From Candidatus Dormibacteria bacterium (lineage in GTDB: Bacteria; Chloroflexota; Dormibacteria; Aeolococcales; Aeolococcaceae): a stretch of DNA of 64,000 nucleotides. The stretch is from the NCBI GenBank assembly GCA_049521435.1, contig JBEKOU010000003.1, forward strand, positions 174,642 to 238,641. The letters run 5' to 3'. The first letter of the stretch is position 1. Each line of letters starts with the position of its first letter. This document shows, piece by piece, positions 24,403 to 35,634 of this stretch. The position numbers and the translations under genes are program-made. Under the pieces are notes generated by a model. The model was not told where the DNA came from, made no database searches, and worked only from the letters and a program-made list of their open reading frames with translations.

Positions 24403-25452
24403 TCAGGGGAGGGGGCGCGACGAGACCTCGAGGGGGAGGGCGGTCAGGACGGTGGGCCGGAAGCCCCGAGCCGGGACCGGCCGGCTGGGTGGTGGAGGCA
24501 CCGGATCCCGGCGGACGCACCAGGCCGGGTCGATGTCATCGCGCAGGGTGACGACCTCGGCACCGCACAGGCTGCCATCGGCACCGCGATTGCGGTAATC
24601 GACGGTGGCGATGAGCGGTGACCGCATCCGGCCGCCGGGCGCCGCCCACCGCCAGAGCGTCGAGGTCTCGGCGATCTCCGCCGTCCCCGCCTCGGTGAGC
24701 CGCGAGCCCTGGTACTCGGCCAGCCGGAGGCGGCGATGGCGGGTGGATCCCAGAACCCTGTCGGTGCCGACCACGAGACAGTGGGCCCGGTGCCTCAGGG
24801 GGATGCGGAGGCGGTCCGGCGAAGCCATCCCGGGGTGGTAGTGGGAGCTTCCCCGCCGGGCGAGGAGCGCGGGCAGGTGGCGGGGAGCGGCGGCGTCCGC
24901 GAGTGCCTCCCCTTCTCCGATGACCCAATCGGGCACCTGGATTCGGGAGTCGGGAAGGGCTATCCCTCGGAGCAGGTCGAGCCGGCGGTCGAGGGCCAGC
25001 CCCATGGTGGCCCGGGCGCCCAGGTGGAGGAGGTCGATGGCCAGATAGACGGCGGGCAGCCTCTGGTGCGTGGCCGGTCCCAGGGCCATCCTCTCCCCCA
25101 GCGCGACCAGATCGGGGCAACCGGACGGGTCGAGGACGGCGACGACCCCATCGAGGACGACCGAGCGGAACGCCAGCGGCTCGGCCGCAGCCACGATCTC
25201 TGGATACCGGTCGCTGACGTCGGCGAGCGTCTCGCTCTGGAGACGGACAACCCCGGGGGAGGCGAAGAGGAGTGTCCGCGCCCCGTCCCAGTCGATCGAG
25301 AAGCGGAAGTCGGGATCGTCGAAGGCCCCGACACAAGGGACCGAGGACTCCGGGAGGACCCGTCCCGGGAGCGCCGGAGGGACGGGGAGGCGGAGGGGAA
25401 GAGCGGCGTCCTCAGGGTCCGGACGGTTGTCCCGATCGGTGGTCGGTCGCAC
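24403..25452 (-). CDS. ATP-dependent DNA-ligase-like protein (LigD/LigC type) whose catalytic motifs lack lysine
   Basis: Adenylation-domain-like motifs: 'FRFSIDWDGAR', 'VVLDGVVAVLD', 'ALLARRGSSHYHPG' and 'RLRIPL'. It lies 6 bp downstream of ku on the same strand. Confidence 0.7.
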   Translation of the reverse strand: MRPTTDRDNRPDPEDAALPLRLPVPPALPGRVLPESSVPCVGAFDDPDFRFSIDWDGARTLLFASPGVVRLQSETLADVSDRYPEIVAAAEPLAFRSVVLDGVVAVLDPSGCPDLVALGERMALGPATHQRLPAVYLAIDLLHLGARATMGLALDRRLDLLRGIALPDSRIQVPDWVIGEGEALADAAAPRHLPALLARRGSSHYHPGMASPDRLRIPLRHRAHCLVVGTDRVLGSTRHRRLRLAEYQGSRLTEAGTAEIAETSTLWRWAAPGGRMRSPLIATVDYRNRGADGSLCGAEVVTLRDDIDPAWCVRRDPVPPPPSRPVPARGFRPTVLTALPLEVSSRPLP

Positions 25453-25457
25453 CCTAT

Positions 25458-26330
25458 TCAGGACGCGCGGCGGCGACGGGCGGACGCGGTGGCCCGTTCC
25501 GGCTCGGCCTCTTCGGCGATGCCGTCCTCCCGTCGACGGGCCGAAGCCTCGACCGACGCCTTGAGGACGGCCATCAGGTCGGTGATCTGAGCGAGCGGCG
25601 GTGAGGGGATGCGCTCGAGCGGCCGGTCGTTGAGCTTCGCCTCGACCAGGCTCTCGACGGCGTCCCGATACCCATCCCGATGCCGCGCAGGATCGAAGCG
25701 GGCGGCGAGGTTCTCGACGAGCATCACGGCCATCTCCAGCTCCCGGGCGTGGACCTCGACCTCCGCCTCGGGGAGGGCGAGCTGTCCCGCGTCCCGGATC
25801 TCGTCCGGCCAGTGGAGGGTGTTGAGCAGGATGGCCCGCTCGTGGAGCGCCAGGCGGCAGAGGTGCTCACGGTCGCGCATGGCGACCTTGCCGACCGCGA
25901 CCTTCCCGGTCTTCTGGAGGGCCATCCTCAGAAGCTGGTAGGGCTTGACCCCGACTGCCTCGGGCTCTAGGTAGTAGGCACCCTTGACGTAGACCCCCGC
26001 GTCGATCTCGGAGTCATCGCAGAACTCCAGGATCTCGATGGTCCGGGTCGACGCCAGGGGCAGGTTGTCCAGCTCCTCGTCCTCGATCCGCACGTACTCG
26101 TCCTTGCCGACCTCGAAGCCGCGCACGGCGTCGTTCCAGCCGACCTCGCACTCCTCGACGGGGCACCACCGCTTGTTCCGGAGCGGCGCGCCGTCGCGCG
26201 GGCAGAGGAGGCGGAAGGCGACCCCCTTGGACTCGTTGGCGAGGTACATCCGCACCGGGATGGCGACCATCCCGAAGCTGATCGCACCCCGCCACATCGA
26301 CCTGGGCATCGATCGAGTATATGCGGACAT
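25458..26330 (-). CDS. ku: Ku protein (non-homologous end joining)
   Basis: 'MWRGAISFGMVAIPVRMY' is the canonical Ku N-terminus. A basic C-terminal tail is present. Confidence 0.9.
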   Translation of the reverse strand: MSAYTRSMPRSMWRGAISFGMVAIPVRMYLANESKGVAFRLLCPRDGAPLRNKRWCPVEECEVGWNDAVRGFEVGKDEYVRIEDEELDNLPLASTRTIEILEFCDDSEIDAGVYVKGAYYLEPEAVGVKPYQLLRMALQKTGKVAVGKVAMRDREHLCRLALHERAILLNTLHWPDEIRDAGQLALPEAEVEVHARELEMAVMLVENLAARFDPARHRDGYRDAVESLVEAKLNDRPLERIPSPPLAQITDLMAVLKASVEASARRREDGIAEEAEPERATASARRRRAS

Positions 26331-26383: not shown

Positions 26384-27643
26384 TCACCACTGCTGGCGGG
26401 TCGCCGGCGAGCTCCCCATCAGGTCGAAACCGGGGTCCTCCACTGGGACGAAGGCGGACTCCACCGCCACCCGACCCGGGCCGATGCAGCGCAGCCAGAG
26501 GTAGCGGTTTCCCCACGACCGCCACGAGCGGTAGGCGCCCGCCGGGTGCTCGAAGTGGAGGTGCATGGAGACGGAGAGGTCCTTGTAGAGGAGCGCGGTG
26601 GGCTTGATGAGCATGGTCTCGCCGGGGCCGAGGCGCCGGACGAAGGCGTTGCCCTTGGCGTGGAGCAGCACCAGCCCGGGCGCCCGGGGCGCGGTGAACC
26701 GGTCCAGGAACTGGCCCATCGGGTAGTGGGTCTCCTGCTCGTTCTGGCCCTTCATGGTGGTGAAGTAGATCCCGCTCATCACCCAGTCATAGGCGGTCGC
26801 CCCGCTGGCGATGAGCATGGTGTGCTCGCGCACCTCGACCCCGCTGCCAACCTGGATGGGCAGGGCGACGATCTCGCCGGCCGCATCGTGGCTGAAGGCG
26901 ATGTGACCCTTGCCGGTGGCCTGGACCATCACCAGGGGCATGCCGGCGAACGTCCGGCTCCAGCCGCCCCGGAGCTTCAGGGTGTCGATGGTGACGCCGT
27001 CGTCGCGGAACAGCAGGGTGTGGTGCATGAAGTAGACCGACTCGCCACCGTCGAGGGTCACGTCGGCCACCGGGACCACGGTGCCCTCGATCTGGCAGGT
27101 GGACTGGCCGAACTGGATGCGGGCCATGTCCTTGACGGCGGGGAGCTGGGTCCAGCCGGAGGTGTCCTGGATGGCGCGGACGTCGACGGGGGCGCCGCAG
27201 GAGGGGCAGCTCGTACCGGGGTTCTGGCTCGACATGGAGCACCAGGGACAGGTGTAGGAGCCGGGCGGGGCCGGGGCCGCAGCCGGCGGCTGGGCCATCG
27301 CGGGCGGCGGCGCGAAGGGCGTGCCGGGTGGCACCTGCTGGGGCGGGAAGGGTCCGCCGGGGCCCGGCATCCGCGAGATGTCGGGGATGGGGATGCCCAG
27401 GGGTCCGCGCCGGAACGGGAAGGGCATGCCCGGCTGTGGTGCCCAGCCGGGAGCGCCGGCTGGCTGGCCACCGGGGGACGCGGGCCCGGCGGGCGGGGGC
27501 CCCGGGGGCGGGCCGCCGGGCTGGACCGGATTGGCCGGGGAGCCGAAGTTCGGAGAGCCCTGCCCCGGGGCGGGTGCCGGGTTGGCGGGGGAGCCCCACT
27601 TGGGAGAACCCTGATCAGGCGGCGGCGGAGGGTTGGAGGCCAT
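26384..27643 (-). CDS. AIM24/DUF124-family protein with N-terminal Pro-rich low-complexity region and zinc ribbon
   Basis: The N-terminus repeats 'GSPxxGSPANP' with poly-Pro. A C4 ribbon 'CPWCS...CPSCG' follows. The AIM24-like core includes 'TLDGGESVYFMHHTLLF...KLRGGWSRTFAGMPLVMVQATGKGHIAFSHDAAGEIVALPIQ'. Confidence 0.8.
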   Translation of the reverse strand: MASNPPPPPDQGSPKWGSPANPAPAPGQGSPNFGSPANPVQPGGPPPGPPPAGPASPGGQPAGAPGWAPQPGMPFPFRRGPLGIPIPDISRMPGPGGPFPPQQVPPGTPFAPPPAMAQPPAAAPAPPGSYTCPWCSMSSQNPGTSCPSCGAPVDVRAIQDTSGWTQLPAVKDMARIQFGQSTCQIEGTVVPVADVTLDGGESVYFMHHTLLFRDDGVTIDTLKLRGGWSRTFAGMPLVMVQATGKGHIAFSHDAAGEIVALPIQVGSGVEVREHTMLIASGATAYDWVMSGIYFTTMKGQNEQETHYPMGQFLDRFTAPRAPGLVLLHAKGNAFVRRLGPGETMLIKPTALLYKDLSVSMHLHFEHPAGAYRSWRSWGNRYLWLRCIGPGRVAVESAFVPVEDPGFDLMGSSPATRQQW

Positions 27644-27650
27644 CTCGCCG

Positions 27651-28463
27651 CTACTCGGTCGCGTGGTGGACGTACATGGACTGTATGCCGAGCCGCCCGG
27701 GCCCGGTCATCCGCACCATGTGCAGCCCGGCCCCGCCGAAGAGTCCCGTGGAAAGCTTCTGGGTCTCGACCGTCATCTGCACCGAGGAGTCCTTGTAGAG
27801 ATAGGCCCCCGGCTCGAGGAGGATCGACTGCCCGGCCGCGAGCTGCCTCTCGAAGACGTTGCCGTAGCCGTGGAGGATGAGGAGCCCCGGCTGCCCGGCG
27901 GCGATGAAGCGGTCCATGAACATGCCCTGCCCTCCGAAGAGGGCGGTGCGCATTCCCTGGATCCGGGTGTACGAGTACTGGACGGTGTGGGAGGCGAGCA
28001 GGAAGGCGTGCTCCCGGGCGTCCAGCTCCATGGACGGATGGAGCGGCAGGACCACCAGCTCACCCGTGGCGTCGCGGGAGAAGGCGATCCGGCCGGGCCC
28101 GCGGGCGGTGGTCACGATGTGGGGCATCCCCGCGAACGACCGCTTCATCATCCCCTGGAGGGGCATGACGCCGACCGGCACGGTCTGGTCCTTCCAGAGC
28201 ATCACGTGGTGCTCGAAGAAGACGCCGTCCTCGGGCGAGAGGGTGATCTCGGCGACCGGGACCAGCTCCCCCTCCACCTGGCAGGACGAGGACCCGAAGT
28301 GGAACTCGGTCATGTCGCGCAGCCGGGGGGCCTCCCGCCACCCCGAGTCGGACACCAGGTTGCGGACGTCGAGAGGCGCCCCGCAGGTCACACAGCTCTG
28401 GGCGCCGGCCGGGCTCTGACCATGGCACCACTGGCACTCGATGCGCTGGCCGACGGCTTCCAT
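27651..28463 (-). CDS. AIM24/DUF124-family protein with N-terminal zinc ribbon (paralog of 26384..27643)
   Basis: Ribbon 'CQWCHGQ...CVTCGAPLDV'. The core is colinear with its neighbour, for example 'MMKRSFAGMPHIVTTARGPGRIAFSRDATGELVVLPLH'. Confidence 0.8.
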   Translation of the reverse strand: MEAVGQRIECQWCHGQSPAGAQSCVTCGAPLDVRNLVSDSGWREAPRLRDMTEFHFGSSSCQVEGELVPVAEITLSPEDGVFFEHHVMLWKDQTVPVGVMPLQGMMKRSFAGMPHIVTTARGPGRIAFSRDATGELVVLPLHPSMELDAREHAFLLASHTVQYSYTRIQGMRTALFGGQGMFMDRFIAAGQPGLLILHGYGNVFERQLAAGQSILLEPGAYLYKDSSVQMTVETQKLSTGLFGGAGLHMVRMTGPGRLGIQSMYVHHATE

Positions 28464-28561
28464 TGGCGATTCTCCCTGTGGCGGACGGCAAGATCGTAAC
28501 CACCCGACCGCCGCTCATGTGAGACGGACCCGGCGGCCGGGGAGGGGCGAAGAGGAGGACG

Positions 28562-29734
28562 TCAGACGGCGGGCGGTTGCGGTGGAGCGGGCGGGGCGTC
28601 AGGGACGACCGGCGGCGCGACGGGAGCCGGCGCGGCGCCCACCGGCTGACCGCAGCCGGCGCAGAAACGGGCTCCCGGGGCCAGCTCGGCACCACACCCG
28701 GTGCAGTGAGCCGCACCCAGCGGACCGCCGCAGCTGGGGCAGAAGCGGCCCCCGGCGGGGCTTGTCGCCTGGCATTTGGGGCACTGGACCGTCGCCGCTG
28801 CGGGTGCCGGAGCGGCAGGCGCGTAGCCTCCGCCGGCGCCACCGGGGAAGCCTGTCCCCGCCGGCGGAGCCGGGGCGGCCTGGACCGGCTGCGCCATCTG
28901 CCCGCCGAGGCCAAAGCCGGCGGCCATGAACGCGGGCGAGACCGCCCCGCCTCCCTGAGCCATCCCCTGGCCGGCGCCCAGCGCCATTTCACCGGCCGCA
29001 TATCCCTGGAAGGAACCCGCCAGCCGCGAGTAGGCCGTGTCCTTGCTGAACTGCTCCAGCCGCTTCTGGGACTCGTCGTCGAGGCTGATCGTGAAGTTCC
29101 CCATCCGGGCGACGGTCAGGCCGTAGGTGGCAAGCTGCTGGTTGGCCAGCTCGATGATCGCGTTCTCGATGTCCTCGGTGTAGGCGGCGAGCCCCAGGAT
29201 CGGCCAGCCGTTGCGCACGATCTGCTTGGTGACGTCGGTGCGCAGCACCTTGAGCAGCTGCTCGGCCACCCAGTTGGTCACTGCGGAGTTGTCGGTGACG
29301 TCCACGGTGCCCACCAGGTTGACCAGGAGGTTGGCGGGCTCCACGACCTTGAGGCTGTAGTCGCCGAAGACCCGCAGCGACACGATCAGGGTGCTGACCG
29401 GATCCTGAACCGAGTCGATCTTGCCCCCGAAGCGATTCTGGGTGAACTCGCGGTTGCCGACGAAGTACAGCTCGGCGCGGTACAGGTTGCCCCCGGTGAG
29501 GGCGTCGGCGAAGATGCCGAGAAAGGGAAGCTCGGTGGCGTCGATGGAGTGCCTGCCGGGGGGCAGGGTGCCCTTGACCTGGCCCTGGTACATGAACACC
29601 GCGAGCTCGTCCGGCGCGACGATCGCGTGGGTGAAACGCCGGATCTCGTGGTCAGGCCACTTGAAGACGATCTGGCCCTTGCGGTCGTCGGGGACCGCGA
29701 TGTTTTCTCGTGCTCCGGGGAAGAAGCCAGGCAT
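28562..29734 (-). CDS. SPFH/Band-7-family protein with Gly/Ala/Pro-rich linker and two C-terminal zinc ribbons
   Basis: The N-terminal 260 aa match the SPFH pattern (for example 'LAVFMYQGQVKGTLPPGRHSID', 'ELYFVGNREFTQNRFGG'). The C-terminus carries 'CPKCQ...CPSCG' and 'CTGCG...CAGCG'. Confidence 0.75.
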   Translation of the reverse strand: MPGFFPGARENIAVPDDRKGQIVFKWPDHEIRRFTHAIVAPDELAVFMYQGQVKGTLPPGRHSIDATELPFLGIFADALTGGNLYRAELYFVGNREFTQNRFGGKIDSVQDPVSTLIVSLRVFGDYSLKVVEPANLLVNLVGTVDVTDNSAVTNWVAEQLLKVLRTDVTKQIVRNGWPILGLAAYTEDIENAIIELANQQLATYGLTVARMGNFTISLDDESQKRLEQFSKDTAYSRLAGSFQGYAAGEMALGAGQGMAQGGGAVSPAFMAAGFGLGGQMAQPVQAAPAPPAGTGFPGGAGGGYAPAAPAPAAATVQCPKCQATSPAGGRFCPSCGGPLGAAHCTGCGAELAPGARFCAGCGQPVGAAPAPVAPPVVPDAPPAPPQPPAV

Positions 29735-29769
29735 GGGTGTCTCTCTCCTCTCGCTGGACCGTCAGTAAA

Positions 29770-30081
29770 TTATGGGTTCTGGGTCGGCAGACCAAGGGCC
29801 CGGCGCACCGACCCGATCTGAAGCAGTGCCCAGAGGCCGCCGGCGGCCACTGCGAGGCCGAATCCACCCATGGCGATCAGGGCGCAGATCACCAGCACGG
29901 CGAGCGCGCCGTGCGCACCCGCGGTCGCGACCAGGACCATCAGGAAGACCCATAGACAGACCAGGGCCAGCACCGCGGCGGCGCCGACGACGGCAAGGCC
30001 CAGCCCCACCACGGCCCCGAGGGTCCGATCCGGGCCGGAGCGCGGGGAGAGGTTGGGGTTGGGATTGAACCAGGGCCGCAC
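29770..30081 (-). CDS. small membrane protein (2–3 predicted TM helices), first gene of the module
   Basis: A 103-aa ORF 36 bp upstream of the SPFH gene on the same strand. Hydrophobic segments: 'LGAVVGLGLAVVGAAAVLALVCLWVFLMVLVA' and 'LAVLVICALIAMGGFGLAVAAGGLWALL'. Confidence 0.45.
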   Translation of the reverse strand: MRPWFNPNPNLSPRSGPDRTLGAVVGLGLAVVGAAAVLALVCLWVFLMVLVATAGAHGALAVLVICALIAMGGFGLAVAAGGLWALLQIGSVRRALGLPTQNP

Positions 30082-30192
30082 GGCTGCAGCTTATCCGGCC
30101 GGGCGGCGAGGCGTCAAAGGGCCGCACGCCGACCTGCCGCAGGCTCCGGCGTCGATGTCGGAGTGGCCCGCGGGTCGCGAGGCGCGAGTACG

Positions 30193-32334
30193 ATGTCGGC
30201 ACCGTGCCGCCGGCGCTCGGCGGCTGCGCCGGTCGTGGCAGAGCCCCCCGACGCATCACCGGCAGCACCTCATCTTTCCCCGGAGCCGCGCCCGTTGGCC
30301 ACGTCCAGGAACACCGTCCCCCCCCGCCGCCCGCGAGCCGCAACCACGGTGCCGGTGCCCGCCGCGACGCCTACCGCGCGCGTCGCCATCGAGCAGCCGC
30401 GGCCCGTCGTGGAGTGCGGGAAGCTGCCAGCGAAGGCCACCGTCGGGATCCCCCTCACCGTCAGCGCCTCCATCTTCGCGGATGGTCACGATCTGGTCGT
30501 GGGCTGGGTCCGCCACGGCCGGCCCGACCCCGGCGGGGGCACCACCGACCGCTGGCAGGAAGTCCCGATGCGGGCGCTCGGCGATGACCGCTTCAGTGCC
30601 GTCCTCACCCCCACGCGGGTGGGATCGTGGTCTTTCGAGATCGCCGCCATGCCCGATCTCTACGGCAGCTGGCTTGCCGATCTCCGTATTCGCCTCGATG
30701 CCGGCCAGGACATCGCCCTCGAGCTGGAGGAGGGTGCGGCGATGGCCGAGCGGGCGGCAGCCCTCCCCGGCACCGCGGACGGCGACCGCCAGGAGCTGAC
30801 GGCCCTGGCCACCCGACTCCGCGACCCGAGCGCGGCGCAGGCGCATCGCCTCGGTGAGGCGGCGCGACCCGTGACGGTCAGGCGGATGCGACAGACCGCG
30901 GACCGCGGGACCGCCACCCGCTCCGGACCATGGCGGCTCACGGTGGAGCGCGAGCTGGCGGGGTTCTCCGCCTGGTACGAGATGTTCCCGAGGTCGGAGG
31001 GGGCGGAACCGCCCCGGAGTGGCACCTTCGGGAGCGCGGCCGCCCGGCTGCCCGCCATCGCCGCCATGGGTTTCGACGTGGTCTACCTCCCCCCCATCCA
31101 CCCGATCGGCCGGAGCTTCCGGAAGGGACCGAACAACGCCACCGCGACGGCTCCCGGGGATGTCGGCTCCCCCTGGGCGATAGGGGCGGCCGAGGGAGGC
31201 CACACGGCTGTCCACCCCGATCTCGGGACGCTCGACGACTTCGCCCTGTTCGTGGCGGAGGCCGAGCACCGCGGTCTGGAGGTCGCCCTCGATTACGCAC
31301 TCCAGTGCAGCCCCGACCATCCCTGGGTCAGCGAACATCCACAGTGGTTTCGCCACCGCGCCGATGGCAGCGTCCGCTACGCGGAGAACCCGCCGAAGCG
31401 CTATCAGGACATCTACCCGCTCGACTTCGGAACGGCGGACCGCGCCGGGCTGTGGACGGCGCTCCGCGACGTGATGCTCTTCTGGATCCAGCGTGGCGTG
31501 CGGATCTTCCGGGTCGACAATCCACACACCAAGCCGTTCGCGTTCTGGGAGTGGTTGATCGGCGAGATCCACCTCCACCACCCGGAGATCGTCTTCCTGG
31601 CCGAGGCGTTCACCCGGCCGGCCGTGATGCAGCGGCTGGCCAAGGTCGGCTTCAGCCAGTCCTACACGTACTTCACCTGGCGCACCTCCAAGGCGGAGCT
31701 GAGCGAGTACCTCACCGAGCTGTCCCAGACCGAGAGGGTCGACTGGTTCCGGCCCAACTTCTGGGTCAACACCCCCGACATCCTCCACGCGTACCTTCAG
31801 CTGGGCGGACCGGCAGCCTTCCGGGTGCGCGCGACCTTGGCGGCGACCACGGCCCCCTCCTGGGGGATGTACAGCGGCTACGAGCTCTGCGAACGGGTGG
31901 CTGCCGCGCCGGGCAGTGAGGAGTACGCCGACTCCGAGAAGTACCAGCTCCGGCCCCGCGATTGGGACCGCCCGGACAGCCTGGCGCCGTACATCACCCG
32001 GCTCAATGACATCCGGCATCGCCACCGTGGGGCGATCGCGCTGCTGCCAACACTGCGCATCCAAGAGATCAGGAACGACAGCATGCTCTGCGTCAGCCGG
32101 GTGGACCAGAACCGCGACGACGTGCTCCTGGTGGTGGTCAACCTCGACCCCCACCATCCCCAGGAGGGCACCATCTGGCTCGACCTGGAGGGGCTCGGGA
32201 TCCCGGCCGACATCCCCTTCGAGGCCTACGACGAGCTGACCGGCACCACCTACGTCTGGCAGGGGCCGGAGAGCTACGTCCGCCTCGACCCGGCCCAGCA
32301 GTCGGCTCACGTGCTCCATCTCCGGCGCCGATGA
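30193..32334 (+). CDS. glgE: alpha-1,4-glucan:maltose-1-phosphate maltosyltransferase
   Basis: '[14 protein letters not shown]...[14 protein letters not shown]...[15 protein letters not shown]...WFRHRADGS'. In-frame ATG at 30193. The ORF track start at 30163 is a GTG. Confidence 0.85.
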
Positions 32335-34100
32335 GCAAGGCGGTTTCGGCACCCACCTCCGGCATGGCGGCCCCCGCGCCCGAGCCCCAGCCCGACGCCG
32401 TGACCCCCGTGGCTCCGGCCCCGCGTGCAGATCCCTCGGCGCCGCCGGTCGCAGGCGACCGGGACCCGCTCTGGTTCAAGCGCGCGGTCTTCTACGAGGT
32501 GCTGGTCCGCGGGTACGCGGACAGCAACGACGACGGCGTCGGCGACTTCCCGGGGCTGATCGAGCGTCTCGAGTACCTGCGATGGCTGGGCATCGACTGC
32601 CTCTGGCTGCTGCCGTTCAATGACTCCCCACTCCGCGACGGCGGCTATGACATCAGGGACTACTACTCGGTCCTGCCCGCCTACGGCACCGTGGACGACG
32701 TCCGGGGGCTGGTGTCCCGCGCTCACGACCTCGGGATGCGGGTGGTCATGGACCTCGTCCTCAATCACACCTCGGACCAGCATCCCTGGTTCCAGTCCGC
32801 CCGCTCGTCGCCGGCCTCACCGCATCGCGACTACTACGTCTGGTCGGACACCAAGAACCGGTACACCGACGCCCGGATCATCTTCGTCGACGCCGAGACG
32901 TCGAACTGGACCTGGGACGACAGCGCCCAGGCGTACTACTGGCATCGCTTCTTCAGCCATCAGCCCGACCTCAACTACGACAACCCCAAGGTCCACGAGG
33001 AGATGGTGGACATCTGCCGCTTCTGGCTTGACCTGGGGATCGACGGATTCCGCCTCGACGCGGTCCCCTACCTCTACGCTCGCGACGGCACCAACTGCGA
33101 GAACCTGCCGGAAACCCACGCCTTCATCGCCGAGCTGCGCGCGATCGTCGACCGCGAGTACGGCGACCGCGTTCTCCTGGCGGAGGCCAATCAGTGGCCG
33201 GAGGACGTGGTCGACTACTTCGGCACCGCGGAGCGCCCCGAATGCCACGTGTGCTTCCACTTCCCGCTCATGCCCCGGATCTTCATGGGGCTGCGCCGGG
33301 AGCAGCGCTACCCGATCACCGAGATCCTGGAGCGCACCCCGGCGCTGCCGACCGCCAGCGCGCAGTGGGGGATCTTCCTGCGCAACCACGATGAATTGAC
33401 ACTGGAGATGGTCACCGACGAGGAGCGCGACTACATGTGGCAGGAGTACGCGCAGGATCCCCGGATGAAGCTCAACCTGGGGATCCGGAGGCGCCTCGCA
33501 CCACTGGTCAACAACGGGCGGCGGCAGATGGAGCTCTTCTACGGGATGCTCCTCTCCCTGCCGGGCAGCCCGATCCTCTACTACGGCGACGAGATCGGGA
33601 TGGGCGACAACATCTACCTCGGCGACCGGGACGGGGTCCGGACTCCGATGCAGTGGAGCGCCGACCGCAACGGTGGATTCAGCCGCGCCGACTTCGCCCA
33701 GCTCTACCTCCCCCCGCTGATGGACCCGGTCTACGGATACCAGTCGGTGAACGTCGAGGCCCAGCGGCGCAGCGAGACCTCGATGCTGCAGTGGCTCCGC
33801 CGCTTCGTCGCGGTCCGGCGGCGCTGGCCGGTATTCGGCCTGGGGAGCTTCGAATCGCTCAACGCGACCAACCCGTCGGTGTTTGCGTATCTCCGCACCC
33901 ACGAGGATCATGCTGTCCTTTGCGTGAACAATCTTTCGCGGTTCGCCCAGCCGGTGGAGCTGGATCTCCGCCGCTATGCCGGGATGACCCCGGTCGAGAT
34001 GCTGGGGAGGGTCCACTTCCCGAAGATCCGGGAGCTGCCCTACCTGCTCACCCTCGCCCCCCACGGGTTCTACTGGTTCAGCATCGAGAGCATTCCGTGA
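32331..34100 (+). CDS. treS: trehalose synthase / maltose alpha-D-glucosyltransferase
   Basis: '[52 protein letters not shown]...[15 protein letters not shown]'. Its ATGA start overlaps the glgE stop. Confidence 0.9.
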
Positions 34101-34113
34101 GGCCCGCCGCGCG

Positions 34114-35634
34114 GTGGCTCTGAACACCGATCCCAGCGCCGTGCAGCTGGAGCCGTTCGGCATCGCCGGCGCGACCGGCGACATCCGGTCGTGGCTGCTG
34201 AAGGCACGCTGGTTCGGCGGCAGGCAGCACCGGGTGGAGCGAATCGAGCTGGACGACCTCGCGGTGCTGCGGGTCGCGGACCCGACCGTCCTCTTCACCC
34301 TCTGGCGGGTCGACTATGCGGACGCGCCCCCGGAGACCTACAGCCTCCCCCTGGGGATCAGGGTCGGCTCCCCCCCGATCGGCGAGCTGGGCCCGGACCA
34401 CCTGATCGGGACCACCAGCTCGGCGCGCGGCTCGCTCCTGGTCTACGACGCCCTTGCCGACCCCGAAGCCACGGTCGAGCTGTGGCGCATGCTGGCGGAG
34501 GAGCGGGAGGTCGCGACCCGCGCCGGACGGCTGATCAGCCGGCATCTCGTCGGCATCGACCCCGACGCCGCCGATCGTCCCCGGCTCCTGGACGTCGAGC
34601 AGAGCAACTCCGCGGTCGTCCGGGGCCACCTCGACTTCCTCAAGTGGAGCCGGCGGATCGAGGCCGGTCCCAGCGTGGAGCTGGAGATGGCCCAGGCCCT
34701 GGCGGAGCGGCACTTCGCCCACGTGCCGGCACTGCACGGGCACGTGAGCTACCGGCGCGGGGCCGGCGCACCCGCCCTCCAGGCCCTGCTCCACGCCTAT
34801 CTCCACAACGGCACGCAGGGGTGGACACTCGCCCTCACGTCGCTGCGCGATCTCTACGCCTCCGCCGAGGAGTCCGGCACGGATTCCCCACGGGAGCGTT
34901 GGGAGATGGTCGACGACCAGGGCGGGTCATTCCAGGGCGAGGCCGCCCGGCTGGGCACGGTCACCGCTGAGCTGCACCTGGCCCTCGCCGACCCCGAGCG
35001 CGGTGGCGTCCTCGCGCCGGAGGCGGTCGGCCCCGCACAGCTCGCGGCCTGGGCAGACGCGATGACCGGGCAGCTCGACCGCCTGCTCACCTCGGGAGAC
35101 CGCGCCCTGGCCGCGCTGAGCGAGAGACGGGCGCCGCTGGTCGCCCGATTCGACGCTCTCCGCCGGCTCGGTGAGGGCGGGCTGGCGATCCGGGTCCACG
35201 GCGACTACCACCTGGGCCAGGTGATACGGATCGATCAGGGCTGGAAGATCATCGACTTCGAGGGGGAGCCGGCCGGCGAGGTCGAGGCGAGACGGCGGCG
35301 CTCCTCGCCGCTGCGTGACGTGGCGGGGATGCTCCGCTCCTTCGATTACGCCGCCGCGGCGGCGCTGGCTCAGCGCATGCAGCCCCGCGATCCGCTCTGG
35401 CACCACCTCTCGGCGGCCGGAGAGGCGTGGGCGGCCGCCAATCGCGACGCCTTCTGGGCCGCCTACCTGGAGCGGGTGAACGGCACCGGGCTCCTCCCCG
35501 GGGGAGGCGGCGCCCTGGTGGTCCGGCGGGCCTTCGAGGTCAGCAAGGCGGTCTACGAGGTGGGCTACGAGCTCGGCCACCGACCCGACTGGGTGGGGAT
35601 TCCCCTCCATTTCCTGCTGGCGGCGACGCCGTGA
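34114..35634 (+). CDS. mak: maltokinase (Mak/Pep2)
   Basis: Position directly after treS, and an aminoglycoside-phosphotransferase-like C-terminal half ('[28 protein letters not shown]'). Confidence 0.8.

What the first reader, a model, noticed from the sequence alone, without database searches (positions are those of the whole stretch)
26384..30081. Four-gene minus-strand module of two zinc-ribbon–AIM24 paralogs, an SPFH protein with two zinc ribbons, and a small membrane protein
Four co-directional genes are spaced 36, 99 and 8 bp apart, which points to an operon. Their order is: a small polytopic membrane protein, an SPFH/Band-7 protein, and two paralogous AIM24/DUF124 proteins. Every soluble member carries a Cys4 zinc ribbon. 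The SPFH protein ends in two ribbons (CPKCQ..CPSCG and CTGCG..CAGCG) after a Gly/Ala/Pro-rich linker. Each AIM24 paralog begins with a ribbon (CPWCS..CPSCG and CQWCH..CVTCG) followed by a shared 'SGW' element. The last paralog adds a ~110-aa Pro-rich low-complexity extension with the repeat 'GSPxxGSPANP'. SPFH proteins form membrane scaffolds. The bacterial function of AIM24/DUF124 proteins is unknown. I do not know a characterised system with this SPFH–AIM24–zinc-ribbon architecture. It looks like a membrane-associated module of undescribed function, possibly stress- or envelope-related. It sits directly beside ku–ligase and the glgE operon.
Basis: partly seen in the sequence, partly recalled or inferred. 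Interest (0 to 1): 0.75.

Follow-up and report, generated by a model that had tools for sequence, protein, structure and literature searches.

The report
SPFH scaffold beside zinc-ribbon AIM24 pair
The four genes are real, but they combine a known kind of membrane-scaffold protein (with a lineage-specific small membrane protein) and a very widespread, highly conserved pair of zinc-ribbon AIM24 proteins of unknown function, and the two parts are neighbours in only some bacteria.

Summary
Four co-directional minus-strand genes encode a 103-aa membrane protein, a soluble SPFH protein (Pfam Band_7_1) ending in two zinc ribbons, and two paralogous zinc-ribbon AIM24 proteins. All four are under purifying selection.

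The "one operon, one system" reading is only partly supported.
- **Deep core.** The AIM24 pair is the conserved part. It is adjacent in every one of 80 loci with room, drawn from 452 species hits across Dormibacterota, Chloroflexota, Acidobacteriota and Planctomycetota. Inter-phylum identity is 70–76% for the upstream paralog.
- **SPFH protein.** It has the YdjI/SamI architecture (soluble SPFH, low-complexity linker, C-terminal zinc ribbon). Its orthologues at 57–82% identity stand alone or pair with a Tim44-like gene.
- **Membrane protein.** It is a clade-restricted orphan: 13 clusters among 5.8 billion proteins.
- **Four-gene order.** It occurs only in one Dormibacteria clade plus one other MAG. 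A conserved −10-like box sits in the 98-nt spacer.

A distantly related Band_7_1+zinc-ribbon SPFH lies convergently beside the AIM24 pair in some Acidobacteria. Every partner class seen next to such SPFH proteins carries zinc ribbons.

Best guess (about 0.4): a sub-membrane SPFH scaffold with zinc-ribbon-tagged AIM24 clients. I rate it a new variant of a known kind, of moderate interest.

The parts
29770..30081 (-). Small membrane protein (103 aa). Gly/Ala-rich hydrophobic span over residues 19-92. Conserved cytosolic ends MRPWFNPxPNL and LQIGSVRRALGL. Proposed membrane anchor for the SPFH protein.
   Evidence: ORF. No Pfam, NCBIfam or PADLOC hit. Hydropathy. Alignment A1 of 8 orthologues. Only 13 protein clusters, all >=62% identical, among 5.8 billion. 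Found only in loci with the four-gene order. dN/dS 0.26-0.51.
28562..29734 (-). Soluble YdjI/SamI-type SPFH protein (390 aa). Contains the SPFH core, a long helix (residues 220-260), a Gly/Ala/Pro linker and two C-terminal zinc ribbons.
   Evidence: Pfam Band_7_1 1.5e-25 and DZR 5.6e-10. No membrane segment. AF2 model and Foldseek hits to stomatin, prohibitin, HflK/C, flotillin and QmcA. Subfamily alignment A3.
29048..29653 (-). SPFH (Band_7_1) domain, residues 28-229
   Evidence: Coordinates. dN/dS of the core is 0.03-0.14.
28793..28954 (-). Gly/Ala/Pro-rich low-complexity linker (residues 261-314), predicted disordered
   Evidence: pLDDT <50 over residues 259-312. Sequence.
28640..28792 (-). 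Two C-terminal Cys4 zinc ribbons (residues 315-339 and 343-365)
   Evidence: Pfam DZR, Zn_Ribbon_1 and Zn_ribbon_3. The first ribbon's cysteines (C318, C321, C332, C335) are invariant and the second's (C344, C347, C358, C361) are >=90% conserved in A3. Acidimicrobiia relatives carry three ribbons.
28493..28498 (-). Conserved -10-like hexamer TACGAT in the 98-nt spacer, 29 nt upstream of the ATG of the 270-aa AIM24 gene. Candidate internal promoter.
   Evidence: Conserved in 7 of 9 clade sequences, CACGAT in an eighth (A4). TACCAT sits at the same offset in L017, where the AIM24 pair has no SPFH upstream. Coordinates. The consensus sigma-70 scan found nothing.
27651..28463 (-). Upstream zinc-ribbon AIM24 paralog (270 aa). 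N-terminal ribbon CQWC..CVTC (nt 28371-28442), 'SGW' linker (nt 28296-28358), AIM24 domain (nt 27675-28280).
   Evidence: Pfam AIM24 8.1e-35. 4841 related clusters. 452 species hits. 70-76% inter-phylum identity. AF2 and Foldseek to 1PG6 and 1YOX. Ribbon present in 77 of 80 orthologues.
26384..27643 (-). Downstream zinc-ribbon AIM24 paralog (419 aa). Pro-rich extension (nt 27257-27643), ribbon CPWC..CPSC (nt 27185-27256), 'SGW' linker (nt 27110-27172), AIM24 domain (nt 26456-27094).
   Evidence: Pfam AIM24 2.2e-18. Follows the 270-aa gene in every locus with room. 53-63% inter-phylum identity. Ribbon present in 76 of 78 orthologues, and some Acidobacterial orthologues carry an extra N-terminal ribbon. 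dN/dS of the extension is 0.21-0.37.

Best explanation
This is a clade-specific composite of two units that act together at the cytoplasmic face of the membrane.

Unit 1 is a soluble YdjI/SamI-type SPFH protein. Like other SPFH proteins, it probably assembles into a ring or cage. It is brought to the membrane by the small Gly/Ala-rich membrane protein encoded just upstream. That role resembles YdjG/YdjH for YdjI in Bacillus subtilis, or NfeD for QmcA.

Unit 2 is an obligate pair of paralogous zinc-ribbon AIM24 proteins that form a hetero-oligomer.

The flexible C-terminal linkers of the SPFH oligomer would display many zinc ribbons. These, together with the N-terminal ribbons and 'SGW' linkers of the AIM24 proteins, would serve as docking elements that concentrate the AIM24 complex on the scaffold. 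The output would be membrane maintenance or envelope-stress handling. The biochemical activity of the AIM24 beta-helix is unknown.

Shown: domain identities and folds, gene order, conservation, lack of membrane segments in three proteins, obligate pairing of the AIM24 genes, and recurrent SPFH adjacency.

Inferred: oligomerisation, anchoring by the small protein, zinc-ribbon-mediated docking, the membrane role, and any physical SPFH-AIM24 contact.
For: Domains and folds are confirmed.

The SPFH protein has the YdjI architecture: Band_7_1, no membrane segment, a low-complexity linker and a C-terminal Zn finger. The literature shows YdjI is soluble and needs the membrane proteins YdjG/YdjH to reach the membrane.

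The small membrane gene occurs only, and always, directly upstream of SPFH in the four-gene loci. Its cytosolic termini are conserved.

The AIM24 pair is adjacent in all 80 loci with room. Zinc ribbons are present in 76/78 and 77/80 orthologues.

SPFH is the only recurrent neighbour of the AIM24 pair among all flanking ORFs. There are two independent arrangements. One is co-directional and upstream in 12 Dormibacteria-type loci, including L019, which lacks the glgE and ku flanks. The other is convergent and downstream in 14 Acidobacteria loci, where the SPFH is only 22-24% identical.

In the reverse test, all 9 close relatives of the Acidobacterial SPFH with room carry the AIM24 pair, and so do 3 more distant ones.

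Every partner class seen next to Band_7_1+zinc-ribbon SPFH genes carries zinc ribbons: YdjG (two), DUF4178 proteins, the Tim44-like protein and both AIM24 paralogs.

The SPFH and AIM24 ribbons are of the same type and cross-match.

Yeast Aim24 is hydrophilic yet firmly membrane-bound. It sits in a complex of about 400 kDa and associates with the small hairpin membrane protein Mic10.
Against: SPFH orthologues at 66-82% identity in other Dormibacteria-type genomes stand alone, with no AIM24 and no small membrane gene.

The AIM24 pair stands alone in most phyla, and also in the closest outgroup L017 (88% identity).

The 98-nt spacer holds a conserved -10-like box that is also present in L017, which suggests separate transcription.

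The Acidobacterial adjacency is convergent, not operonic, and is absent from about 50 of the 65 SPFH loci with room. In those loci the SPFH gene heads a polyamine operon instead.

There is no interaction, localisation or co-expression evidence. No multimer prediction was possible. AIM24 structural relatives have no known function. Zinc ribbons are common domains, so the shared-ribbon pattern could be coincidental.
Confidence: 0.4

Rival explanations
1. Two unrelated units were juxtaposed by a clade-specific rearrangement. The membrane-protein/SPFH pair is one small envelope unit. The AIM24 pair is an autonomous, housekeeping-like complex with its own promoter. Their adjacency carries no functional meaning.
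For: The AIM24 pair is self-sufficient in most lineages and has no other conserved neighbour. SPFH orthologues stand alone or have other partners. A conserved -10-like box lies in the spacer and is shared with L017. The four-gene order is restricted to one clade plus L019.
Against: A second, independent SPFH-AIM24 adjacency exists in Acidobacteria. It spans at least Terriglobales and Bryobacterales and involves a very divergent SPFH. L019 keeps the four genes together although both flanks differ. SPFH is the only recurrent neighbour of the pair. The zinc-ribbon theme is shared by all partner classes.
Confidence: 0.35
2. The AIM24 pair is a soluble enzyme or small-molecule- or RNA-binding complex, not a membrane factor. 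The double-stranded beta-helix (TRAP-like) fold would bind a ligand, and the ribbons would bind nucleic acid or serve a structural role. SPFH is at most a regulator.
For: Sequence conservation is very high, and many polar residues are invariant in both paralogs (H85 H86, R108, D131, E135, R150 E151 H152, D184 R185, H198, K224). These residues are not shared with PA3696, as expected for a specific binding or active site. No membrane segments are predicted. Genomic contexts look housekeeping-like, for example next to rpsB-tsf.
Against: There is no similarity to any enzyme or characterised binder. Eukaryotic AIM24 proteins act at membranes. SPFH neighbours recur.
Confidence: 0.15
3. The cluster is an anti-phage defence or abortive-infection module that uses an SPFH scaffold and AIM24 effectors.
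For: SPFH proteins and zinc ribbons do occur in some defence contexts.
Against: PADLOC gave no credible hit (one E 0.006 match to a helicase model). The AIM24 pair is inherited across phyla at 70-76% identity, in non-island and sometimes ribosomal-gene contexts. That is unlike mobile, patchy defence genes. No nuclease, protease, NTPase or sensor domain is present.
Confidence: 0.04
4. The cluster is functionally tied to its neighbours, either NHEJ repair (ku-ligD, 53 nt downstream and co-directional) or alpha-glucan metabolism (glgE-treS-pep2, divergent).
For: The flanks are conserved in 12-13 close relatives. The gap to ku is short.
Against: Both flanks are absent in L019, which keeps the four genes, and in every locus outside the clade. 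This is short-range synteny only.
Confidence: 0.03

Closest known systems
Bacillus subtilis YdjI/SamI with YdjG/YdjH (SamG/SamH) and PspA (the pspA-ydjGHI operon)
   Same: [quoted passage not shown] Both are encoded beside small membrane protein(s) and beside zinc-ribbon-bearing partner(s); YdjG has two ribbons (window).
   Different: The cluster has no PspA (ESCRT-III), no TPM-domain YdjH and no NTF2/YpeB-like YdjG. The partners here are an orphan 103-aa membrane protein and two AIM24 proteins. The SPFH carries two ribbons, and its Band_7_1 score is modest (90 bits, against about 250 for the Acidobacterial proteins). I made no direct sequence comparison with YdjI itself.
SPFH-NfeD operons, for example E. 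coli QmcA-YbbJ (PDB 8z5g), and cage-forming SPFH assemblies (HflK/C, stomatin, prohibitin, flotillin)
   Same: The SPFH fold followed by a long wall helix matches these structures. A small membrane protein is encoded next to the SPFH gene.
   Different: The SPFH protein has no membrane anchor of its own. The small partner has no NfeD/OB domain (no Pfam hit, only 103 aa). The C-terminus is a disordered linker plus zinc ribbons instead of a cap-forming segment.
Yeast Aim24 (mitochondrial inner membrane, MICOS/Mic10-associated) and plant AIM24 proteins (ER-stress tolerance)
   Same: They share the AIM24 domain. The yeast protein is hydrophilic and lacks a membrane segment, yet is membrane-associated and oligomeric (about 400 kDa). 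It is linked to a small Gly-rich hairpin membrane protein and to membrane architecture.
   Different: The eukaryotic proteins are not described as having an N-terminal zinc ribbon or a paralog pair. No SPFH link is reported. The resemblance of the orphan membrane protein to Mic10 is analogy only.
PA3696 (PDB 1YOX) and SPyM3_0169 (PDB 1PG6), the TIGR00266-type bacterial AIM24 proteins
   Same: The fold is the same (Foldseek E 1e-9 to 2e-10, target-normalised TM-score 0.70-0.74). Sequence similarity reaches E 5e-9.
   Different: Those proteins are single-domain and have no ribbon. The window proteins fall far below the TIGR00266 cut-off (33 against 96.6 bits). The subfamily-specific invariant polar residues are absent from PA3696. 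Neither structure has an assigned function.
PSP-type polyamine operons (AdoMet decarboxylase, DUF4178, membrane-bound spermidine synthase) described with PspA
   Same: In most Acidobacterial loci the canonical Band_7_1+zinc-ribbon SPFH heads exactly such an operon. Its DUF4178 partners carry N-terminal ribbons (literature). This shows that the SPFH type is a swappable sub-membrane module.
   Different: There are no polyamine genes in the window cluster. The AIM24 pair takes the place of these partners.

Membership tests
SPFH / Band 7 superfamily | Profile match above the curated threshold | tested here: met
   PF13421 Band_7_1, 90.5 bits against a cut-off of 24, E 1.5e-25, residues 28-229
SPFH / Band 7 superfamily | SPFH alpha/beta fold followed by a long helix | tested here: met
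   The AF2 model (core pLDDT 73-91) gives Foldseek hits to stomatin, prohibitin, HflK/C, flotillin and QmcA at E 1e-7 to 1e-4, probability 1.00
YdjI/SamI-type soluble SPFH | No membrane anchor of its own | tested here: met
   Maximum 19-residue Kyte-Doolittle score is 1.21; no segment reaches 1.6
YdjI/SamI-type soluble SPFH | Low-complexity region followed by C-terminal zinc finger/ribbon | tested here: met
   Disordered Gly/Ala/Pro linker at residues 259-312, and two Cys4 ribbons at residues 315-365.
YdjI/SamI-type soluble SPFH | Operon with pspA, ydjG (two zinc ribbons + NTF2 + membrane segment) and ydjH (TPM domain) | tested here: not met
   The cluster genes carry only Band_7_1, zinc-ribbon and AIM24 domains, or none. 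I did not scan the rest of the window for PspA.
YdjI/SamI-type soluble SPFH | Membrane recruitment depends on co-encoded membrane proteins | not testable with these tools
   Needs localisation experiments. The only support is the strict co-occurrence of the orphan membrane gene with this SPFH in the four-gene loci.
AIM24 (PF01987 / DUF124) | Profile match above the curated threshold in both paralogs | tested here: met
   120.8 and 67.2 bits against a cut-off of 25.7
AIM24 (PF01987 / DUF124) | AIM24 double-stranded beta-helix fold | tested here: met
   The 270-aa protein matches only 1PG6 and 1YOX, with target-normalised TM-score 0.70-0.74. The 419-aa paralog was not modelled.
TIGR00266 (NCBIfam equivalog of PA3696-type AIM24) | Score above the equivalog cut-off | tested here: not met
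   33.3 bits against 96.6 for the 270-aa protein; no hit for the 419-aa protein. This is a distinct subfamily.
SPFH-NfeD operon | Partner membrane protein carries an NfeD/OB-fold domain | tested here: not met
   No Pfam or NCBIfam hit. The protein is 103 aa and almost entirely hydrophobic.
Known anti-phage defence systems (PADLOC-DB) | Match to any defence-system protein model | tested here: not met
   The only hit is a spurious E 0.0059 match of SPFH to a HamB helicase model

The most novel reading that the evidence does not exclude
The zinc-ribbon AIM24 heteromer is a previously unrecognised client or partner of YdjI-type SPFH scaffolds. Cys4 zinc ribbons would be the general docking tag by which such scaffolds recruit interchangeable partners: YdjG, DUF4178, Tim44-like and AIM24 proteins. 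If so, the mysterious AIM24 family would have an ancestral role in organising or repairing the cytoplasmic membrane. That role would be a bacterial antecedent of the mitochondrial Aim24-MICOS function, alongside the SPFH/prohibitin and Tim44 parallels.
Probability: 0.22. Interest if true: 0.75.

Novelty: new variant of a known kind. Interest (0 to 1): 0.5.

Why it matters
AIM24/DUF124 is a large family present in all three domains of life, and none of the papers searched here gives it a biochemical or bacterial function. The 270-aa zinc-ribbon form is 70-76% identical between phyla in the sampled loci. That is unusually high for a protein of unknown function, and it is always paired with a paralog.

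A recurrent link to YdjI-type SPFH scaffolds gives the first testable handle on it: look at the inner face of the membrane, with an SPFH partner, under envelope stress.

The finding also extends the picture of soluble SPFH+zinc-ribbon proteins as swappable sub-membrane platforms. It suggests a simple rule, that the partners carry zinc ribbons, which can be tested in B. subtilis and in cultivable Acidobacteria.

If the adjacency is fortuitous, the value shrinks to a catalogue entry: a conserved AIM24 gene pair plus an ordinary SPFH gene.

Tried and rejected
- **PADLOC and NCBIfam scans.** Nothing useful.
- **Sequence search of the PDB with SPFH.** Only noise, including a weak anti-TRAP zinc-ribbon hit at E 0.77. 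I do not rely on it.
- **Consensus promoter/terminator scan.** No sigma-70-type promoter. The two terminator-like hits lie on the plus strand inside the SPFH gene start and are at chance level.
- **Other conserved neighbours of the AIM24 pair.** All-vs-all clustering of flank ORFs gave only shadow ORFs, clade-specific synteny and SPFH. The AA_permease_2 genes near the pair in two loci did not recur.
- **ku/ligD and glgE linkage.** Rejected as clade-only synteny.
- **Homologues of the small membrane protein elsewhere.** I wanted to decide whether it travels with SPFH or with AIM24. None exist outside the clade.
- **AlphaFold DB fold search.** The library was unavailable.
- **Ter-system paper said to discuss AIM24 contexts (PMC4104200).** Not held, so the TerD-AIM24 link is cited only second-hand.
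- **Multimer modelling and mapping invariant residues onto the model.** Not possible with the tools.
- **The 'DUF124' hits in T6SS and nematode papers.** These are word-start matches to other DUF numbers and were ignored.

Full report
**Observation**

The window is high-GC DNA (about 70%). It comes from a Candidatus Dormibacterota metagenome-assembled genome. Contig PMYJ01000031.1 (locus L005) encodes a 99%-identical 270-aa protein.

The four minus-strand ORFs are as described. Spacers are 35, 98 and 7 nt, with 53 nt to ku.

Pfam confirms the domain calls:
- The 390-aa protein matches Band_7_1 and double zinc-ribbon models.
- Both downstream proteins match AIM24.
- The 103-aa protein matches nothing.

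Hydropathy gives one continuous hydrophobic span (residues 19-92) in the small protein. The other three proteins have no membrane segment.

Structure prediction recovers both folds:
- The 270-aa protein (pLDDT 79) matches only the two AIM24 structural-genomics entries, 1PG6 and 1YOX.
- The SPFH model has an SPFH core, a long helix (220-260), a disordered linker (259-312) and two ribbons. It matches stomatin, prohibitin, HflK/C, flotillin and QmcA.

Pairwise dN/dS against three relatives is below 1 everywhere: SPFH core 0.03-0.14, 270-aa AIM24 0.05-0.26, 419-aa AIM24 0.16-0.35, its Pro-rich extension 0.21-0.37, and the membrane gene 0.26-0.51.

**What is conserved and what is not**

A search with the 270-aa protein found 4841 related protein clusters. 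Listed hits were 65-88% identical, from Dormibacterota, Chloroflexia, Tepidisphaeraceae, Acidimicrobiales, Binatia and Thermomicrobiales. A scan of species-representative genomes gave 452 hits, of which 80 loci were kept.

In every locus with room, the 270-aa gene is followed directly by an orthologue of the 419-aa gene. The Cys4 ribbon is present in 77/80 and 76/78 orthologues. Some Acidobacterial downstream paralogs carry an additional N-terminal ribbon.

Mean identity between phyla is 70-76% for the upstream paralog and 53-63% for the downstream one. The sampled loci are the best 80, so these values are biased upwards.

The full four-gene order, with glgE and ku-ligD flanks, occurs only in 12-13 close relatives (at least 90% identity). 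The four genes without those flanks occur in one further MAG (L019). The nearest outgroup (L017, 88%) and all other Dormibacterota, Chloroflexota, Planctomycetota and most Acidobacteriota have the AIM24 pair alone, in unrelated contexts.

**The SPFH protein**

It belongs to a wide subfamily of about 400 aa with two or three C-terminal ribbons. I looked up the genomic context of seven homologues:
- At 82%, 72%, 67% and 66% identity, the gene stands alone near tad-pilus and ABC-transporter genes.
- At 57-59% identity, it is followed by a Tim44-like gene.
- None has AIM24 or the small membrane gene nearby.

The small membrane protein has only 13 related clusters among 5.8 billion proteins, all at least 62% identical. 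It is a clade-restricted orphan that appears together with the four-gene arrangement.

**Evidence for a functional link**

Unbiased clustering of all flanking ORFs shows that SPFH is the only recurrent neighbour of the AIM24 pair.

Besides the 12 Dormibacteria-type loci, 14 Acidobacterial loci carry a canonical Band_7_1 plus single-ribbon SPFH. Pfam E is about 1e-74, and identity to the window protein is only 22-24%. The gene is convergent and lies mostly just downstream of the pair.

In the reverse test I took 80 metagenome loci of that Acidobacterial SPFH. All nine close relatives with room, plus three more distant ones, have the AIM24 pair. About fifty do not.

In those fifty, the SPFH gene heads an operon of AdoMet decarboxylase, two DUF4178 proteins and a membrane-bound spermidine synthase. 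That operon type has been described with PspA in the phage-shock literature.

A unifying detail is that every partner class seen next to Band_7_1+ribbon SPFH genes carries zinc ribbons:
- YdjG, with two
- DUF4178 proteins
- the Tim44-like protein, CPNCG...CKYC
- both AIM24 paralogs

The SPFH and AIM24 ribbons are of the same C-x2-C-x9-11-C-x2-CG-x-P type and cross-match in tblastn.

**Evidence against a single operon**

The 98-nt spacer contains TACGAT 29 nt upstream of the start of the 270-aa AIM24 gene. It is conserved in seven of nine clade sequences, with CACGAT in an eighth. L017, where no SPFH lies upstream, has TACCAT at the same offset. The AIM24 pair probably kept its own promoter. 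The consensus promoter scan is uninformative in this organism.

**Comparison with known systems**

The SPFH protein has the architecture reported for B. subtilis YdjI/SamI. [quoted passage not shown] The membrane proteins YdjG/YdjH recruit it to the membrane, where it stabilises PspA foci and influences stress signalling. PspA, TPM and NTF2-type partners are absent here.

Small membrane partners of SPFH genes are classically NfeD proteins, as in QmcA-YbbJ (a Foldseek hit). The orphan protein has no NfeD domain.

Bacterial AIM24 proteins are uncharacterised. Yeast Aim24 is hydrophilic yet firmly bound to the inner membrane. It forms a complex of about 400 kDa and associates with Mic10. Plant AIM24s act in ER-stress tolerance. 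No held paper mentions AIM24 together with SPFH or zinc ribbons.

**Interpretation**

I commit, at about 0.4, to a sub-membrane assembly with three elements:
- The orphan membrane protein anchors a YdjI-type SPFH oligomer.
- The flexible C-terminal tails of that oligomer display zinc ribbons.
- The obligate zinc-ribbon AIM24 heteromer docks there and contributes to membrane maintenance or envelope-stress handling.

The main rival (about 0.35) is fortuitous, clade-specific juxtaposition of two independent units. A soluble ligand-binding or enzymatic role for the AIM24 pair (about 0.15) is suggested by the many invariant polar residues shared by both paralogs and absent from PA3696. Defence, and NHEJ or glucan linkage, are unlikely.

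**Verdict**

This is a real feature and a new variant of a known kind: YdjI-type SPFH modules with interchangeable ribbon-bearing partners. The most interesting element is not the four-gene cluster. It is the pan-phylum, highly conserved zinc-ribbon AIM24 pair and its recurrent, though facultative, SPFH neighbourhood. Interest is moderate (0.5).

Noticed in passing
window 28493-28498 (minus strand), in the 98-nt spacer 28464-28561: A -10-like TACGAT lies 29 nt upstream of the ATG of the 270-aa AIM24 gene. It is conserved in 7 of 9 clade sequences, with CACGAT in an eighth. TACCAT sits at the same offset in L017, where the pair has no SPFH upstream. This suggests an internal promoter.
   Followed up: partly
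L085 7001-8959 and L089 7001-8946 (probably Acidimicrobiia): The orthologous SPFH with three zinc ribbons is followed by a Tim44-like (PF04280) protein ending in a zinc ribbon (CPNCGAPLELDLTGECKYC). AAA and VWA_CoxE genes lie divergently upstream. This is another partner set for this SPFH type, and another mitochondria-named domain.
   Followed up: partly
L105-L171, e.g. L116 488-5752: In most Acidobacterial loci, the canonical Band_7_1+zinc-ribbon SPFH heads an operon of AdoMet decarboxylase, two DUF4178 proteins (each with an N-terminal zinc ribbon) and a multi-pass-membrane spermidine synthase. The SPFH occupies the position that PspA holds in published PSP-type polyamine operons.
   Followed up: partly
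window 27651-28463 and orthologues (alignment A2): Many polar residues are invariant in both AIM24 paralogs (HH85-86, R108, D131, E135, REH150-152, DRF184-186, H198, K224, R257). They are not shared with PA3696 (1YOX). This may be a subfamily-specific binding or active site. I could not map them onto the model.
   Followed up: no
window 24403-26330 (minus strand): ku (290 aa) and a 349-aa ligase-domain-only LigD-type gene follow the cluster co-directionally after 53 nt. They are conserved only in the close clade.
   Followed up: partly
window 30163-35634 (plus strand): A divergent glgE-treS-pep2 (maltokinase-like) alpha-glucan operon. GlgE was confirmed by Pfam. TreS and Pep2 are inferred from the translations only.
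   Followed up: no
L016 5736-6834 and 3162-5313: SPFH and glgE are each split by a frameshift in this long-read MAG. These are probably assembly indel errors rather than pseudogenes.
   Followed up: no
window 29770-30081; yeast literature: The orphan 103-aa protein is a Gly/Ala-rich double hydrophobic hairpin-like protein. Yeast Aim24 associates with Mic10, which from my own recollection (not from the papers read here) is likewise a small Gly-rich two-helix membrane protein. This is analogy only; no homology was detected.
   Followed up: no
L001 9953-12202; L003 2825-5314: Large AA_permease_2 genes lie near the AIM24 pair in a Solibacteraceae locus and a Chloroflexia locus. The pattern did not recur in the 80-locus clustering.
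   Followed up: yes
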